Source: Escherichia coli (GTDB taxonomy: Bacteria > Pseudomonadota > Gammaproteobacteria > Enterobacterales > Enterobacteriaceae). From it: a stretch of DNA of 64,000 nucleotides. The notes under the pieces are model-generated. The model ran no database searches. It saw nothing but the letters and a program-made list of their open reading frames with translations, and had not been told where the DNA came from. The position numbers and the translations under genes are program-made. The stretch is taken from the NCBI RefSeq assembly GCF_048403405.1, contig NZ_CP183129.1, one strand, 5' to 3'. Below, piece by piece: positions 42,546 through 52,688 of this stretch (positions are counted from its first letter, which is position 1; the number at the start of each line of letters is the position of its first letter).

Positions 42546-42729
42546 TTAATCTTAAGGCAGATCTAACAAGGATATTGTTCTTCGATCTGCCTCTGCTACC
42601 CTTCCCGATGTCCTACCCTTACGCACAAAATCCCCTGACGCATAAATCGAGAAAAATGAATCGTACTCGAGGCAACTCTCACTTTTTCACACCAAATTAA
42701 AGTTTTGATCGCAATTACTTGAAATAAGC

Positions 42730-42755
42730 GTAATGGTTACTATAGTAAACATTAC
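42730..42755. promoter_or_regulatory. 26-bp near-perfect palindrome; candidate operator for the downstream toxin-antitoxin operon
   Basis: gtaatggttactatagtaaacattac (single mismatch from perfect dyad symmetry) ending 15 nt before the toxin start codon. Confidence 0.5.
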
Positions 42756-42770
42756 CACAAGGATGGATGT

Positions 42771-43157
42771 ATGGGTGTGTATAAGGCAAGACGATTCAGC
42801 CAAAGCACGAAAAAACTTGGTATTCACGATAAAGTTCTCATGGCTGCCGCTGAAGAAGTGATGCAGGGCATATGGGAGGCTGATTTAGGTAGCGGTGTCA
42901 TCAAAAAACGTTTACCCCTCCAACAAGGAAAGAGTGGTGGAGCCAGAACAATTATCTTTTTTAAATCAGCAAATCATGTGTTTTTTTATGATGGTTGGTC
43001 CAAGAGTGGTCTAAGCAGTAAAGGAACCAAAGAAATCGAAGATGATGAACTGGCGGCCTACAAAAAAATGGCAAATGCATTTCTGGCCTTTAGCAATAAG
43101 CAAATAGAGGATTTGATCGAAACTGGCTTTTTGATTGAGGTGAAAAATGAGCGATAA
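42771..43157 (+). CDS. putative type II toxin, RelE/ParE superfamily (HigB-like; toxin-first operon)
   Basis: 128-aa basic protein MGVYKARRFSQSTKKLGIHDKVL...GKSGGARTIIFF...; AAGGA RBS; overlaps downstream HTH gene by 11 nt. Confidence 0.65.
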   Translation: MGVYKARRFSQSTKKLGIHDKVLMAAAEEVMQGIWEADLGSGVIKKRLPLQQGKSGGARTIIFFKSANHVFFYDGWSKSGLSSKGTKEIEDDELAAYKKMANAFLAFSNKQIEDLIETGFLIEVKNER

Positions 43158-43476
43158 ATTACAAATGATGCTGGAAGATGCAAAGGAACTGAATGCACTG
43201 GGCCTGATGTCTGATAGTGAAGTTGATGCCATTGCCGTCATGGTCAAAGCTCGTGAAGTCAGCGCCCGTATAGCCAAAGTCAAATCAATGACGGGTGAAG
43301 AGATCAAAGCCATCCGCACCCGATACGGCATGTCACAATCCGTGCTGGCACATACAATGGGAATGTCAAAAGAAAGTGTCTCGAAATGGGAACGTAATGA
43401 AATAAAACCGAGCGGCCCGGCATTACGTATTTTGAATACATTGGCAATAAAAGGGCCGGAAGTTTTTGCAAAGTAA
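43147..43476 (+). CDS. putative antitoxin with C-terminal XRE-family HTH (HigA-like)
   Basis: 109-aa protein; C-terminal GMSQSVLAHTMGMSKESVSKWERNEIKPSGPALRILNTL is a typical Cro/C1-type HTH; translationally coupled to the upstream toxin-like gene. Confidence 0.65.
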   Translation: MSDKLQMMLEDAKELNALGLMSDSEVDAIAVMVKAREVSARIAKVKSMTGEEIKAIRTRYGMSQSVLAHTMGMSKESVSKWERNEIKPSGPALRILNTLAIKGPEVFAK

Positions 43477-43504
43477 AATGTTTGCAAATGATTTACCACA
43501 TTCA

Positions 43505-43532
43505 TTAGTACCCCTTGATTAAGGGGTACTAA
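43505..43532. terminator. strong hairpin between the antitoxin gene and convergent dgcI
   Basis: Perfect 12-bp stem ttagtacccctt-gatt-aaggggtactaa. Confidence 0.5.
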
Positions 43533-43545
43533 CACTATTCTAATT

Positions 43546-49259: not shown

Positions 49260-50798
49260 TTATTGCAAATCCGCGTCTTCAAAGCTGAAGCCGGTGTCTG
49301 GCATGATCCAAAAACCGGTCAGGTTTTTACTGTGTGCCGACACCAGTTTTTCTACCACCAGCGGGATCCACGGCGACTCTTGCCAGATGATATCCTGCGC
49401 CGCCTTATATAAACGGGTCTTTTCTGCCGGATCATTAGTTTTCAGTGCCTGAGCCAGGAAATCATCCACCTGTTTATTGCTGTAAAACGCGGTATTAAAC
49501 AGCGTCGGTGGCCAGTTCTGCGAGGCAAACAGCGGCGATAGTGCCCAGTCCGCTTCGCCGGTTGAAGCCGACCAGCCAGTGTAGAACATCCGCACGCCGC
49601 TCTCTTTTTGCCCTTTACCTTCAACTTCTGCCGCCCGCTGTCCGGCATCCATCGCAGTCACCTGGGCTTTAATCCCGACCTGCGCTAACTGCTGCTGGGT
49701 AAATTGCAGCACTTTCTGCGCGGTGCTGTGGTTATGTGACGACCACAGCGTGGTACTGAAACCGTTGGGATATCCCGCCTCTTTCAGTAATTCGCGCGCT
49801 TTCACTGGATCGTAAGGCCACGGTTTATAACTTTGCGCGTAGGCGATACTCGGCGGTACCACACCAGTAGCTGGCGTTGCATAGCCCGCGAAGGCTACTT
49901 TCACCAGCGCCGGGCGGTTAATGGCGTAATTCAGCGCCTCACGGACCTTCGGGTTATCGAACGGCTTTTGCGTCACGTTCATACTGATATAACGCTGCAT
50001 AATTGACGGACTGGCCATCAACTCGATATTTTTGTTTTTCTCCAGCAGTGCGGCCTGCTCGTAGGGAATGGGGAAAGCAAACTGCGCTTCACCGGTTTGC
50101 AGCATTGCCGCGCGGGTATTGTTATCCGCCACCGGACGCCAGGTTATGCTGTCCAGTTTGGGCAATCCTGGCTGCCAGTAACCCGCGAATTTTTTCACCT
50201 TCACAAAATCGGTCTGATTCCAGGTATCCAGTTCATACGGCCCGGTTCCCACCGGATGAAAACCAATCTCCTTGCCATATTTTTCCAGCGCTGCCGGCGA
50301 AATCATCGCGGTCGCCGGATGGGCAAGAATATTAATAAACGCTGAGAACGGCTGTTTGAGGGTAATCTTTACCGTTGTTGGATCGATCGCTTCCGTTTTG
50401 GCAATATTCTTATACAGGTTGTAGCGTTTAAGATGATTCGCCGGATCGCTGGCCCGGTCCAGATTCGCTTTTACCGCCGCTGCGTTGAAGTCGGTGCCAT
50501 CCTGGAATTTAATGCCTTCCCGCAATTTCACGGTGTAAGTAAGGCCGTCATCGGAAACGGTATAACTCTCCGCCAGCACGTTTTTCAGTTTCATCTCTTT
50601 ATCGAGACCGAACAGCCCCTGGTAAAACGATTTCGCTACGGCCTGAGATAACGTGTCATTTGCGTCATACGGATCGAGCGTGGTGAAGTTCGATCCTACC
50701 GCCACCACCACATCTTTGGCAGCGAATGCACAAGATGCCATCAACGCTGTCGCAATGCCCAGCGCCACTAACCCACTACGGTGTACAGCTCTTGCCAT
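49260..50798 (-). CDS. gsiB: glutathione-binding periplasmic protein GsiB
   Basis: From ATG 50798 ([26 protein letters not shown]...), 512 aa; the 601-aa track ORF is an upstream over-extension. Confidence 0.93.
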
Positions 50799-50817
50799 TT
50801 TATTCTCCGCCTGAATG

Positions 50818-52688
50818 TTATCTACGCATGAATGCGTATTCTGATTGTGGTTGTGCGACGTAATGCCCCGGCCCGACGCATTGCAACGAGACGGCTGCCA
50901 CCTCTTCGCCACGCAGATGAATATTGCTGGGAAGATCGTCCGACAGCAGTACACGCTGCGGTCGTTGTCGGGACGGTTCAGCGACCGGAACTGCCGCCAG
51001 TAATTTACGCGTATAAGGATGCTGCGGGTTTTCGAAGACCGCGCGCCGTGGACCAATTTCAACAATTTGTCCGAGATACATCACCGCCACACGATGACTA
51101 ATCCGCTCTACCACGGCCATATCGTGGGAGATAAACAGATACGCAATGCCGAAATCACGCTGGAGATCGAGCAACAAGTTGATAATCTGCCCGCGAATAG
51201 AAACATCCAGCGCCGAGACGGCTTCGTCGGCAATGATCACTTTTGGATTCAATGCCAACGCGCGAGCAATGCAGATGCGCTGGCGCTGACCGCCGGAAAA
51301 CTCATGCGGGTAACGCCAGGCATGTTCAGGTAACAGGCCCACGCGCTCCAGCAACCACGCAACGCGTGCAGCCGCTTCTTTACCTGGCAATAAACCGTGT
51401 ACGCGCAGCGGTTCGATAATCGAATCACCGATGGTCTGACGTGGGTCCAGCGAAGCGTAAGGGTCCTGAAAAATAAACTGAATATCCCGGCGCAATGCCT
51501 GAAGTTTACCGGATGACAAGGTATCGATTCGCTGACCGTTAAAGATAATTTCGCCGCCCTGCGATTCGACCAGGCGCAGCAACGCCCGCCCGGTAGTGGA
51601 TTTACCGCTGCCAGACTCGCCCACCAGCGATAGCGTTTCGCCAGGCCAGAGATCAAAACTGACTTTCTCAACGGCATGCACTTCCCGCGTTACGCGATTC
51701 AACAAACCGCTGCGCAAAGGGAAACGGGTGACCAGATTACGCACCCGTAAAACAGGTTCGCCATCCACCACCGTTTTCTGCTCGATGGGTGGTTCCTGTT
51801 TGGCTGGATGTTCAAGCGATATCAATGGGAAACGTCGGGGATAATCTAACCCTTTCATCGCACCAAGTTGCGGAACAGCAGCTAACAGCGCACGGGTGTA
51901 AGGATGTTGCGGTGCATGAAAAATCTGTTCGACGCTACCCGTTTCCACCGCCTCGCCCTGATACATCACCAGTACCCGATCGGCAATCTCTGCCACCACG
52001 CCCATATCGTGAGTGATAAAGATAACGCCCATCGACATCTCTTTTTGCAATACTTTGATTAATTGCAGGATCTGCGCCTGAATAGTGACATCCAGCGCGG
52101 TGGTTGGCTCATCGGCAATCAGCACCGCCGGGCGGCATGACAGTGCCATCGCAATCATCACTCGCTGGCGCATCCCGCCAGAGAGTTGATGCGGATAACG
52201 TGAAAGAATGGTTTGTGCCTCCGGAATGCGTACCTGATCCAGCATCCGCTTCGCCTCGACCATTGCTTCTTCACGACTGGCGTTTTGATGCAGACGAATT
52301 GATTCGGCAATCTGTTCACCCACAGTAAATACCGGGTTCAGCGATGTCATCGGCTCCTGAAATATCATCGCCATATCCGCACCGCGCACATGGCGCATTT
52401 GTGCAGCGCTCTGCTCGCTAAGTTCAATCACTTCGCGACTGCGCCGCCGCAACAGCATTTGATCGCACTGCACTAAACCGCCCGCCTGTTCCAACAGGCG
52501 CATCAATGCCAGCGCAGTCACTGACTTACCGGAGCCAGATTCGCCAACAATTGCCAGCGTCTCACCGCGTTGCAGGCTAAAGAGAGATTGCGGACCGCAG
52601 CTATTTTCTGCTGGTCCTGCATAAAGGCAATATTCAGATTTTCAACCGCCAGCACATCACCGGCATCAAGTTCATCACTGTGTGGCAA
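50818..52688 (-). pseudogene. gsiA: glutathione ABC transporter ATPase GsiA, disrupted by a 1-nt frameshift near the 5' end
   Basis: N-terminal 92-aa ORF (52518-52796) reads ...[36 protein letters not shown] then goes out of frame; the remainder (50818-52521) resumes at ...[14 protein letters not shown]; restoring one A in the A3 run at 52579-52581 (plus strand) gives the continuous [24 protein letters not shown] Walker A. Confidence 0.8.

What the first reader, a model, noticed from the sequence alone, without database searches (positions are those of the whole stretch)
42730..42755. 26-bp near-perfect palindrome positioned as the operator of the toxin-antitoxin operon
gtaatggttactatagtaaacattac has dyad symmetry with a single mismatch and ends 15 nt upstream of the toxin start, overlapping where the promoter should lie. 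Type II TA operons are typically autorepressed by the antitoxin at exactly such palindromes.
Basis: seen in the sequence. Interest (0 to 1): 0.35.

Follow-up and report, generated by a model that had tools for sequence, protein, structure and literature searches.

The report
Operator of an E. coli HigBA2-type toxin-antitoxin operon
The 26-bp palindrome is real and is very probably where the antitoxin of a small accessory E. coli toxin-antitoxin cassette binds to switch off its own promoter, which is an ordinary, textbook arrangement in a locus nobody seems to have studied.

Summary
The palindrome GTAATGGTTACTA/TAGTAAACATTAC lies at 42730-42755, pairs at 12 of 13 positions and ends 15 nt before the toxin ATG. 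Only two such palindromes occur in the 64-kb window, against 0.04-0.12 expected.

It lies on the best sigma-70-like promoter of the intergenic region. That promoter is TTGAAA-16-TATAGT, and its -10 hexamer is the centre of the dyad.

The genes are a ~1-kb accessory cassette between rimO and dgcI, present in about 21% of complete E. coli genomes. It encodes a PF06296 (HigB-2 family) toxin and an antitoxin with a C-terminal HTH domain whose closest solved relative is V. cholerae HigA2.

In 22 distinct enterobacterial homologues the motif GTA-N4-TTACTATAGTAA-N4-TAC is conserved (1.31 bits per column) while the flanks are not (0.28-0.36). Distant homologues carry a different palindrome at the same promoter position and a different recognition helix. 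These include the Coxiella ToxP/AntitoxP promoter, for which antitoxin binding has been shown by EMSA.

One refinement: the 26-mer is two 11-bp units, GTAA-N3-TTAC, flanking the TATA of the -10.

It is a new member of a known kind, and interest is low.

The parts
42730..42755 (.). Composite 26-bp dyad, the proposed operator: GTAATGGTTAC-TATA-GTAAACATTAC
   Evidence: (I7). It is conserved as GTA-N4-TTACTATAGTAA-N4-TAC in 22 distinct enterobacterial homologues, at 1.31 bits per column against 0.28-0.36 in the flanks.
42730..42740 (.). Unit O1: the 11-bp palindrome GTAA-TGG-TTAC, lying in the -35/-10 spacer
   Evidence: Loci L020 and L025 keep only this unit intact. Distant homologues and Coxiella PtoxP have a single 4-N3-4 unit at this same promoter position.
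42745..42755 (.). Unit O2: the 11-bp palindrome GTAA-ACA-TTAC, covering the 3' end of the -10 and the predicted transcription start
   Evidence: GTAA-N3-TTAC occurs 3 times in the window (0.46 expected), and two of the three are these units.
42719..42724 (+). Predicted -35 hexamer TTGAAA
   Evidence: A -35-like hexamer lies 16-18 nt upstream of the central TATAGT/TATAAT in many homologues, for example L004, L012, L018, L019, L025 and L037.
42741..42746 (+). Predicted -10 hexamer TATAGT, at the centre of the dyad
   Evidence: These are among the most conserved columns of the footprint.
42759..42763 (+). Shine-Dalgarno-like AAGGA, 7 nt before the toxin ATG
   Evidence: Read directly from the sequence.
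42771..43157 (+). Toxin gene, 128 aa, PF06296 / HigB-2 family of the RelE/ParE superfamily
   Evidence: Pfam E 7e-33, 113.8 bits against a cut-off of 27. The family profile hits HigB-2 structures at E 1e-4. PF06296 contains V. cholerae HigB-2 (PMC11980606).
43147..43476 (+). Antitoxin gene, 109 aa. It has N-terminal helices, which in VcHigA2 form the toxin-binding region, and a C-terminal XRE HTH domain. It overlaps the toxin gene by 11 nt.
   Evidence: The family profile hits HigA-2 5jaa at E 3e-12. The AF2 model has pLDDT 89.5. The top Foldseek hits are HigA2, at rmsd 1.1-1.3 A over about 61 residues.
43505..43532 (.). Perfect 12-bp stem with a 4-nt loop after the antitoxin stop, a probable terminator between the convergent TA operon and dgcI. 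It is part of the cassette, not of the operator.
   Evidence: I8. One search gives -17.7 and -19.3 kcal/mol, z about -5. Other species carry unrelated hairpins at this position.
42551..43545 (.). Approximate extent of the accessory cassette, which replaces about 38 bp (a terminator hairpin) of the K-12 rimO-dgcI gap
   Evidence: The cassette is present in 1138 of 5426 complete E. coli genomes.

Best explanation
The dyad is the autoregulatory operator of a HigBA2-family (PF06296 toxin, XRE-HTH antitoxin) type II toxin-antitoxin operon.

Shown directly:
- The promoter-like TTGAAA-16-TATAGT has its -10 hexamer at the dyad centre.
- The dyad consists of two 11-bp palindromic units, GTAA-N3-TTAC. 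O1 (42730-42740) fills the -35/-10 spacer. O2 (42745-42755) runs from the end of the -10 to the predicted transcription start near 42753.
- The motif is conserved across homologous cassettes, whereas the flanking DNA is not.

Inferred:
- Dimers of the antitoxin bind the units through the helix-turn-helix of the C-terminal domain. The recognition helix is SKESVSKWERNE.
- The antitoxin probably binds alone and also in complex with the toxin, as shown for Coxiella AntitoxP, and for VcHigA2, whose complex with HigB2 on operator DNA has been crystallised.
- Binding occludes RNA polymerase between -35 and +1 and so represses toxin-antitoxin transcription.
- Loss of the labile antitoxin would derepress the operon.
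- The ancestral arrangement is probably one unit just upstream of the -10, as in the Coxiella and beta-proteobacterial homologues. The enterobacterial lineage then has a second copy downstream of the TATA, which produces the 26-bp composite palindrome.
For: - The palindrome is real and improbable by chance.
- It overlaps the promoter. TTGAAA-16-TATAGT is the only 10-of-12 site upstream of the toxin gene. In most homologues the best sigma-70-like site also has its -10 at the motif centre.
- The footprint is sharp. In 22 distinct enterobacterial upstream regions, information is 1.31 bits per column in the 26-mer against 0.28 and 0.36 in the 30-nt flanks. The outer GTA and TAC, which lie outside the -10 hexamer, are about as conserved as the -10 itself. 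The motif ends 13-23 nt before the start codon.
- The reverse test holds. The exact motif pattern found 10 metagenome contigs, and 6 of them (4 distinct alleles) have it 16-22 nt upstream of a HigB2-like toxin and HTH antitoxin pair.
- Operator and repressor co-vary. All GTAA-type loci have (S/Q)KWER in the recognition helix. Beta-proteobacterial and Coxiella homologues have TVR/KxWE(I/V/L) and a xCAC-N3-GTGx unit at the same promoter position.
- The four base-contacting residues of VcHigA2 (R68, E71, N72, R77; PMC11006873) align with E76, S79, K80 and E85 here. This fits the different operator sequence.
- The antitoxin HTH domain is homologous to HigA2 in sequence and in fold.
- Characterised relatives behave this way. 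The VcHigA2 operator is a single inverted repeat running from after the -35 over the -10, and it represses in vivo (PMC11006873). [quoted passage not shown] PtoxP reads TTGACA-17-TATAGT with TCAC-TTA-GTGA at the end of the spacer.
- The 101-bp promoter stretch is at least 99% identical in 1132 of 1135 E. coli genomes that carry it.
Against: - There is no experimental binding, repression or transcription-start evidence for this locus. The promoter is a consensus prediction only.
- The core of the motif is also a good -10 element, so part of the conservation would exist without any repressor.
- Stoichiometry and unit assignment are not settled. Candidates are two dimers on A-B and C-D, one dimer on the inner TTAC-TATA-GTAA, or some other arrangement.
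- The geometry (4-N3-4) differs from the footprinted VcHigA2 operator (7-N5-7).
- In several Morganellaceae homologues the best TTGnnn lies 19-20 nt from TATAGT, so promoter placement is not uniform.
- The within-E. coli conservation of the promoter stretch has little statistical power.
Confidence: 0.85

Rival explanations
1. The conserved sequence is simply the promoter, that is an unusually well-kept -10 region, and its dyad symmetry is incidental. No repressor binds it.
For: TATAGT/TATAAT at the centre are among the most conserved columns. The palindromic core TTACTATAGTAA contains overlapping -10-like hexamers.
Against: - The outer GTA and TAC, 11-13 bp either side of the centre, lie outside the -10 hexamer yet carry 1.2-1.8 bits each, while the intervening N3 columns carry almost none. 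A sigma-70 promoter does not account for that symmetric pattern.
- Distant homologues keep a palindrome at the same place but with a different sequence, matched to a different recognition helix.
- Relatives have demonstrated antitoxin-promoter binding (PMC11006873, PMC10098735).
Confidence: 0.06
2. The site is bound by a host-encoded regulator, or by some other factor, and not by the cassette's own antitoxin.
For: The AT-rich palindrome could in principle be recognised by other HTH proteins. No binding data exist for this locus.
Against: - The motif travels with the cassette into unrelated genomic contexts and genera (Escherichia, Kluyvera, Siccibacter, Photorhabdus, Xenorhabdus, Proteus, Providencia, Pantoea, Pectobacterium and metagenomes), with unalignable flanks.
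- The only DNA-binding domain encoded in the cassette is the antitoxin HTH.
- The operator type tracks the antitoxin recognition helix.
Confidence: 0.04
3. The palindrome acts as a nucleic-acid hairpin: a 5'-UTR RNA structure, a terminator, or a recombination or insertion site of the cassette.
For: The 36-nt stretch folds at -7.6 kcal/mol, z -2.4, with 3 of 200 shuffles folding as well. The cassette is an indel relative to K-12.
Against: - The hairpin is weak, AT-rich and has no loop.
- The predicted transcription start lies inside the right arm, so the left arm would not be transcribed from this promoter.
- Across homologues the conserved letters are the tetramers, not pairing as such. Dyad pairing drops to 8-10 of 13 in many loci while GTA/TTAC/GTAA/TAC persist, and some loci are better direct repeats than inverted ones, for example L010 and L012.
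- The cassette junctions are at about 42551 and about 43545, roughly 180 bp or more away.
Confidence: 0.03

Closest known systems
Vibrio cholerae HigBA2 and its operator (HigA2; PDB 5jaa, 8a0w, 8a0x; PMC11006873, PMC5416850)
   Same: - The toxin is in the same Pfam family, PF06296.
- The gene order is toxin first.
- The antitoxin has an N-terminal toxin-binding region and a C-terminal XRE HTH domain that dimerises. HigA2 is the best sequence-profile hit (E 3e-12) and the best fold match (rmsd 1.1-1.3 A).
- The operator is an inverted repeat that starts after the -35 and extends over the -10, and the antitoxin represses in vivo.
   Different: - The operator sequence and geometry differ. HigA2 has a single TGTACGC-N5-GCGTACA (7-N5-7). 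Here there are two GTAA-N3-TTAC units, 15 bp apart centre to centre.
- All four base-contacting residues differ: R68, E71, N72, R77 in HigA2 against E76, S79, K80, E85 here.
- The proteins are distant. A single-sequence search of the toxin finds no PDB hit, and the antitoxin is about 22-28% identical.
- The HigA2 N-terminus is disordered when free. Here it is predicted to be helical, and this has not been tested.
Coxiella burnetii QpH1 ToxP/AntitoxP (CBUA0028/CBUA0027; PMC10098735)
   Same: - It is the closest experimentally studied homologue found: toxin 35.5% identical over 96% of the query, antitoxin 33%.
- The gene order is toxin first.
- The antitoxin and the complex bind the promoter in EMSA, and the promoter is derepressed when the plasmid is lost.
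- The promoter has a 4-N3-4 palindrome (TCAC-TTA-GTGA) in the -35/-10 spacer, abutting TATAGT. This is the position of O1 here.
   Different: - It has a single unit, with CAC/GTG half-sites instead of GTAA/TTAC.
- The recognition helix is TVKQWELGE instead of SVSKWERNE.
- It is plasmid-borne and essential for plasmid retention.
- The paper does not name the palindrome, so the operator itself was not mapped.
E. coli MqsA and the mqsRA promoter palindromes (PMC4894380; PDB 3gn5, 3o9x)
   Same: - The gene order is toxin first.
- The C-terminal XRE HTH domain is related (TIGR03830 E 1.8e-12, family-profile PDB hit E 1.5e-5).
- The palindrome geometry is similar: AACCT-N3-AGGTT against GTAA-N3-TTAC.
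- From my own knowledge, mqsRA has two palindromes in its promoter.
   Different: - There is no zinc-binding CxxC N-terminal domain. The score of 47.1 is below the TIGR03830 cut-off of 61.8.
- The toxin is PF06296, not MqsR (PF15723).
- The half-site sequence is different.
- No evidence was found here that the antitoxin regulates other genes.
Proteus vulgaris (Rts1) HigA and E. coli K-12 HigA / Salmonella SehB operators
   Same: These are toxin-first type II TA operons that are autorepressed by an HTH antitoxin at palindromes overlapping the -35 and -10.
   Different: - They belong to different toxin families (PF05015, PF09907) and have different antitoxin architectures. SehB is 142 aa and homologous to K-12 HigA (PMC7160566).
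- They give only weak fold hits (6chv, E about 0.05).

Membership tests
HigBA2-type (PF06296) type II toxin-antitoxin module | The toxin belongs to Pfam PF06296 (the HigB-2 family of the RelE/ParE superfamily) | tested here: met
   E 6.9e-33, 113.8 bits against a cut-off of 27, covering the full-length profile 1-120. The family profile hits HigB-2 chains at E 1e-4. PF06296 contains VcHigB-2 (PMC11980606).
HigBA2-type (PF06296) type II toxin-antitoxin module | Toxin-first bicistronic operon, with the antitoxin gene adjacent or overlapping | tested here: met
   Toxin 42771-43157 and antitoxin 43147-43476, with an 11-nt overlap. The same arrangement occurs in nearly all homologous loci.
HigBA2-type (PF06296) type II toxin-antitoxin module | The antitoxin has a C-terminal XRE/lambda-repressor-like HTH domain homologous to HigA2 | tested here: met
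   HTH_3 at E 1.9e-9. Family profile against 5jaa at E 3.3e-12. AF2 model pLDDT 89.5. Foldseek top hits are HigA2, with TM (target) 0.80-0.83 and rmsd 1.1-1.3 A.
HigBA2-type (PF06296) type II toxin-antitoxin module | The toxin is a ribosome-dependent mRNase that is neutralised by the antitoxin | not testable with these tools
   Inferred only from family membership. This needs toxicity and rescue assays and cleavage assays.
Autoregulatory TA operator | An inverted repeat overlaps the core promoter (-35 to +1) of the TA operon | tested here: met
   The dyad 42730-42755 overlaps the predicted TTGAAA(42719)-16-TATAGT(42741-42746). The promoter is predicted, not mapped.
Autoregulatory TA operator | The site is conserved with the cassette and co-varies with the DNA-binding protein | tested here: met
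   Footprint of 1.31 against about 0.3 bits per column. GTAA-type operators go with a KWER helix, and CAC-type operators go with a WE(I/V/L) helix. Motif-to-gene reverse test.
Autoregulatory TA operator | The antitoxin (with or without toxin) binds the site and represses transcription | not testable with these tools
   Shown for the relatives VcHigA2 (PMC11006873) and Coxiella AntitoxP (PMC10098735), but not for this locus.
VcHigA2 operator specificity (TGTACGC-N5-GCGTACA) | Same operator sequence and geometry, and the same base-contacting residues | tested here: not met
   The sequence is GTAA-N3-TTAC, present twice. The contact residues R68, E71, N72 and R77 align to E76, S79, K80 and E85. 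It works like the HigA2 operator but has a different specificity.
MqsRA | MqsA N-terminal zinc-binding CxxCG domain and an MqsR toxin | tested here: not met
   TIGR03830 scores 47.1, below the cut-off of 61.8, and only the C-terminal HTH part aligns. The antitoxin has no cysteines. The toxin is PF06296.
Intrinsic terminator / RNA hairpin | A stable GC-rich stem-loop followed by a U-tract | tested here: not met
   Folding gives -7.6 kcal/mol for an AT-rich stem with no loop and no U-tract. The terminator scan does not report it.

The most novel reading that the evidence does not exclude
The enterobacterial branch of the HigBA2 family has turned an ancestral single 11-bp operator into a double operator that brackets the -10, with units 15 bp apart and therefore on roughly opposite faces of the helix. 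Repression might then need two antitoxin dimers, possibly bridged by toxin. That would give a cooperative or toxin-ratio-dependent switch that the single-site V. cholerae system lacks. The antitoxin might also regulate other GTAA-N3-TTAC sites in the genome, as MqsA does.
Probability: 0.2. Interest if true: 0.4.

Novelty: new member of a known kind. Interest (0 to 1): 0.22.

Why it matters
The result gives a defined, testable operator and promoter for an uncharacterised HigBA2-type toxin-antitoxin cassette. About a fifth of complete E. coli genomes carry the cassette, including O157:H7 (ECs_5399/ECs_5400 in Sakai).

It also yields a family-wide operator rule: an 11-bp 4-N3-4 palindrome at the end of the -35/-10 spacer, whose sequence tracks the recognition helix. 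That rule points to the likely unmapped operator in the experimentally studied Coxiella ToxP/AntitoxP promoter.

Beyond that, it confirms a textbook mode of regulation and does not reveal a new one.

Tried and rejected
- **Literature on this locus.** Searches with rimO/dgcI plus toxin-antitoxin, with guessed old locus tags (ECs0914, Z1060, Z1061, c0920, ECs5399, ECs5400), with DUF1044/PF06296/COG4737, and with HigB2/HigA2 plus O157 found no paper on this E. coli locus.
- **Salmonella SehAB.** I checked it as a possible characterised relative and rejected it. SehB is a 142-aa homologue of K-12 HigA, which is a different family.
- **A. baumannii HigBA2.** Its toxin has a GP49 domain, so it belongs to a different family.
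- **PDB search with the toxin alone.** A single-sequence search found nothing at E<=1. Only the family profile reached HigB-2.
- **NCBIfam.** No model matches the toxin.
- **RNA hairpin or terminator reading of the dyad.** The fold is weak, so I rejected it.
- **Viral contigs.** The exact motif pattern is absent from them.
- **The third GTAA-N3-TTAC, at 50362.** It lies inside a 601-aa ORF, and I judged it a chance match.
- **Within-E. coli conservation of the promoter stretch.** It is uninformative. The O157 allele differs at about 12 per 1000 bp overall and at 0 of 101 bp here, an outcome with a probability of about 0.3 by chance.
- **The repeat finder on Coxiella PtoxP.** With a seed of 6 it missed the 4-N3-4 unit, so I read the unit directly from the sequence.

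Full report
**1. The observation.**
Window 42730-42755 reads GTAATGGTTACTATAGTAAACATTAC. The repeat finder reports two abutting 13-nt arms that are 92% complementary (I7). The toxin ORF begins at ATG 42771, so the dyad ends 15 nt upstream of it, with an AAGGA ribosome-binding site in between.

A scan of the whole window finds only two palindromes of this quality: 13+13 arms, at most 1 mismatch, no gap. First-order Markov simulations give 0.12 per window. The analytic expectation is 0.04 per window and 2e-4 for the 225-nt intergenic region.

**2. Genomic context.**
The window is E. coli chromosome, with yliI, bssR and rimO on one side and dgcI and pdeI on the other.

In K-12 the rimO-dgcI gap is 46 bp and holds a terminator hairpin. 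In this window about 1 kb (roughly 42551-43545) replaces about 38 bp of that gap. The cassette is present in 1138 of 5426 complete E. coli genomes, including O157:H7, where it is ECs_5400/ECs_5399 in Sakai.

The cassette carries two overlapping genes:
- **Toxin (128 aa).** It matches PF06296 over the full profile (E 7e-33). This is the Pfam family that contains V. cholerae HigB-2. The family has toxin-first gene order and ribosome-dependent mRNA cleavage (PMC11980606).
- **Antitoxin (109 aa).** It has a C-terminal XRE-type helix-turn-helix domain. A family profile finds HigA-2 as the best solved relative (E 3e-12), ahead of P22 C2 and MqsA. An AlphaFold2 model (pLDDT 89.5) matches the HigA2 C-terminal domain at 1.1-1.3 A rmsd. 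Its hits include the entry for the HigB2-HigA2 tetramer on operator DNA.

**3. Promoter.**
The only strong sigma-70-like site upstream of the toxin gene is TTGAAA (42719-42724), a 16-nt spacer, then TATAGT (42741-42746), with 10 of 12 consensus matches.

The -10 hexamer is the centre of the dyad. The left arm fills the spacer. The right arm reaches the expected transcription start near 42753. A hairpin after the rimO stop (42555-42592, -16.2 kcal/mol) suggests that the operon has its own promoter. These placements are predictions, not mapped sites.

**4. Comparative evidence.**
A genome-wide search with a toxin alignment returned 42 loci.

- **Conservation in Enterobacterales.** Every usable enterobacterial locus has the same motif 13-23 nt upstream of the toxin start, although the flanking DNA cannot be aligned. 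These loci include Kluyvera, Siccibacter, Photorhabdus, Xenorhabdus, Proteus, Morganella, Providencia, Pantoea, Pectobacterium, Enterobacter, Pluralibacter and Phytobacter.
- **Strength of the footprint.** Over 22 distinct sequences the 26 motif columns carry 1.31 bits per column, against 0.28 and 0.36 in the 30-nt flanks. The consensus is GTAATGATTACTATAGTAATCATTAC.
- **Pattern of conservation.** The conserved letters are GTA(A), TTAC, TATA, GTAA and (T)TAC. The two N3 blocks are essentially free. The single mismatch in the E. coli dyad falls in those free blocks.
- **What a promoter alone would not explain.** The outer GTA and TAC lie outside the -10 hexamer, yet they are about as conserved as it is.
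- **Reverse test.** The exact pattern GTAA-N3-TTACTATAGTAA-N3-TTAC found 10 metagenome contigs. Six of them (four distinct alleles) have it 16-22 nt upstream of a HigB2-like toxin and HTH antitoxin pair. One of these is a pair too divergent for tblastn to detect its toxin. The other four contigs (two distinct AT-rich sequences) have no TA module nearby, which is about the number of chance hits expected in a collection of that size.

**5. Substructure of the dyad.**
The 26-mer is (GTAA-N3-TTAC)-TATA-(GTAA-N3-TTAC). It is therefore two 11-bp palindromes 15 bp apart centre to centre, and such an arrangement automatically forms a longer palindrome.

Several observations favour the 11-bp unit as the basic site:
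- Some loci are better direct repeats of an imperfect unit than inverted repeats. L010, L012 and L031 read GTAC-N3-TTAC twice.
- L020 and L025 keep only the upstream unit intact, with symmetry centred on it (TAGTAA-N3-TTACTA).
- The distant beta- and gamma-proteobacterial homologues have one 4-N3-4 unit (xCAC-N3-GTGx, or ACC-CTT-GGT in Rheinheimera) at the end of the -35/-10 spacer.
- The Coxiella burnetii QpH1 toxP promoter reads TTGACA-17-TATAGT, with TCAC-TTA-GTGA as the last 11 nt of the spacer.

GTAA-N3-TTAC occurs three times in the window (0.46 expected). Two of the three are these units. The geometry resembles the MqsA motif AACCT-N3-AGGTT (PMC4894380). It does not resemble the 7-N5-7 operator of V. 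cholerae HigA2.

**6. Co-variation of operator and repressor.**
All loci with GTAA-type operators have (S/Q)KWER in the recognition helix. These are 25 genome loci plus three metagenome alleles.

Homologues with CAC-type units, Coxiella AntitoxP included, have TV(R/K)(K/Q)WE(I/V/L). The four residues that read bases in the HigA2-DNA crystal structure (R68, E71, N72, R77; PMC11006873) align with E76, S79, K80 and E85 here. This fits the different DNA sequence.

The association holds at the level of family branches. I do not claim a residue-to-base code.

**7. What is known from relatives.**
- **V. cholerae HigA2.** It protects a 24-bp region containing TGTACGC-N5-GCGTACA, which starts after the -35 and extends over the -10. 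It binds as a dimer with a KD of about 25 nM and represses a reporter in vivo (PMC11006873).
- **Coxiella AntitoxP.** Its toxin partner is 35.5% identical to this toxin, and the antitoxin itself is 33% identical. AntitoxP alone and the ToxP/AntitoxP complex both shift the toxP promoter in EMSA, and that promoter is active only when the plasmid is absent (PMC10098735). The paper does not mention a palindrome.
- **This locus.** I found no publication on it.

**8. Mechanism.**
The following points are shown directly:
- The dyad, its overlap with the predicted promoter, its conservation and its co-variation with the antitoxin.
- The homology of the antitoxin to DNA-binding repressors.

The following points are inferred:
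- Antitoxin dimers bind O1 and O2 through the HTH, alone or with toxin bound to the N-terminal helices.
- Binding blocks RNA polymerase from -35 to +1.
- Loss of antitoxin derepresses the operon.
- The two-unit arrangement arose in the enterobacterial branch from a single ancestral unit.

Stoichiometry, cooperativity and any role of the toxin as co-repressor or de-repressor cannot be decided with these tools.

**9. Rival explanations.**
- **Promoter only.** This does not explain the symmetric outer conservation or the operator switch in distant homologues.
- **A host factor.** This is unlikely, because the motif travels with the cassette and tracks its antitoxin.
- **A nucleic-acid hairpin.** The fold is weak (-7.6 kcal/mol). 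The left arm would lie upstream of the predicted start. In homologues the tetramers persist while pairing decays.

**10. Verdict.**

The system is a new, uncharacterised member of a well-known kind: a HigBA2-family type II TA operon with promoter-overlapping autoregulation. Interest is low (0.22).

The most novel reading still open is a cooperative, possibly toxin-bridged double operator, or a wider regulon for the antitoxin. I give that a probability of about 0.2.

Noticed in passing
window 43505-43532: This is the only other top-grade palindrome in the window: a perfect 12-bp stem with a 4-nt loop (TTAGTACCCCTT gatt AAGGGGTACTAA), 29 nt after the antitoxin stop and 13 nt before the stop of the convergent dgcI gene. 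It folds at -17.7 kcal/mol on the + strand and -19.3 on the - strand (z about -5), but no U-tract follows on either strand. It is probably a bidirectional terminator of the cassette. Other species carry unrelated hairpins at this position.
   Followed up: partly
window 42551-42600 and L002 6665-6710: The cassette brings its own hairpin after the rimO stop (42555-42592, -16.2 kcal/mol). This replaces the K-12 rimO/dgcI terminator hairpin AGGCCGGGCAAAATCATTTGTCCGGCCT. The dgcI stop codon also differs: TAG here, TAA in K-12.
   Followed up: partly
L003 (JAIJJM010000872.1, 'Collinsella sp.' MAG): This 1.2-kb contig, assigned to an actinobacterial MAG, encodes a toxin 100% identical to the E. coli one, and the 150 nt upstream of it, including the operator, are identical to the window. 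It is almost certainly a binning contaminant.
   Followed up: no
L031, L037, L043; proteins P0013, P0025, P0034, P0038: Several homologous loci carry truncated toxin genes: 54, 103 and 98 aa in the three loci, and 81-108 aa in the E. coli alleles. The operator and antitoxin are often still present. This suggests decaying modules or antitoxin-only remnants, like the truncated toxP described for Coxiella genomic group V.
   Followed up: no
L035, L040, L042, L043 (upstream of the toxin start): In the beta-proteobacterial homologues the -10-like hexamer ends only 4-10 nt before the toxin start codon. The toxin mRNA there would be leaderless or nearly so, unlike the roughly 18-nt leader with a Shine-Dalgarno sequence in E. 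coli.
   Followed up: no
L056 551-582 (Coxiella burnetii plasmid, toxP promoter): The experimentally studied PtoxP contains TTGACA-17-TATAGT, with the palindrome TCAC-TTA-GTGA at the end of the spacer. The paper that showed AntitoxP binding (PMC10098735) does not mention a palindrome, so this is a candidate for its unmapped operator.
   Followed up: partly
L048/L049/L051 (identical) and L055: These contigs match the 26-bp operator pattern exactly, but no toxin-antitoxin genes lie nearby. They are AT-rich DNA. The L048 instance is a tandem repeat of GTAAGAATTAC spaced by TATA, and L055 is a perfect palindrome in an intergenic region. Both are probably chance or unrelated sites.
   Followed up: partly
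L054 1520-2113: A 197-aa serine recombinase (resolvase/invertase-like) gene lies directly upstream of the operator of a divergent metagenomic HigBA2-type cassette. This hints at a mobile-element context for some family members. The family is also common on plasmids: 209 plasmid records, including Piscirickettsia, Sinorhizobium and Coxiella.
   Followed up: no
window 50362-50372: A third GTAA-N3-TTAC unit (GTAATCTTTAC) lies inside a 601-aa ORF on the minus strand (49260-51065). It is isolated and not in a promoter, so it is most likely chance.
   Followed up: partly
window 42733-42861: A 42-aa ORF starts at the ATG inside the left arm of the palindrome and overlaps the toxin start in another frame. 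It has no support and is probably spurious.
   Followed up: no
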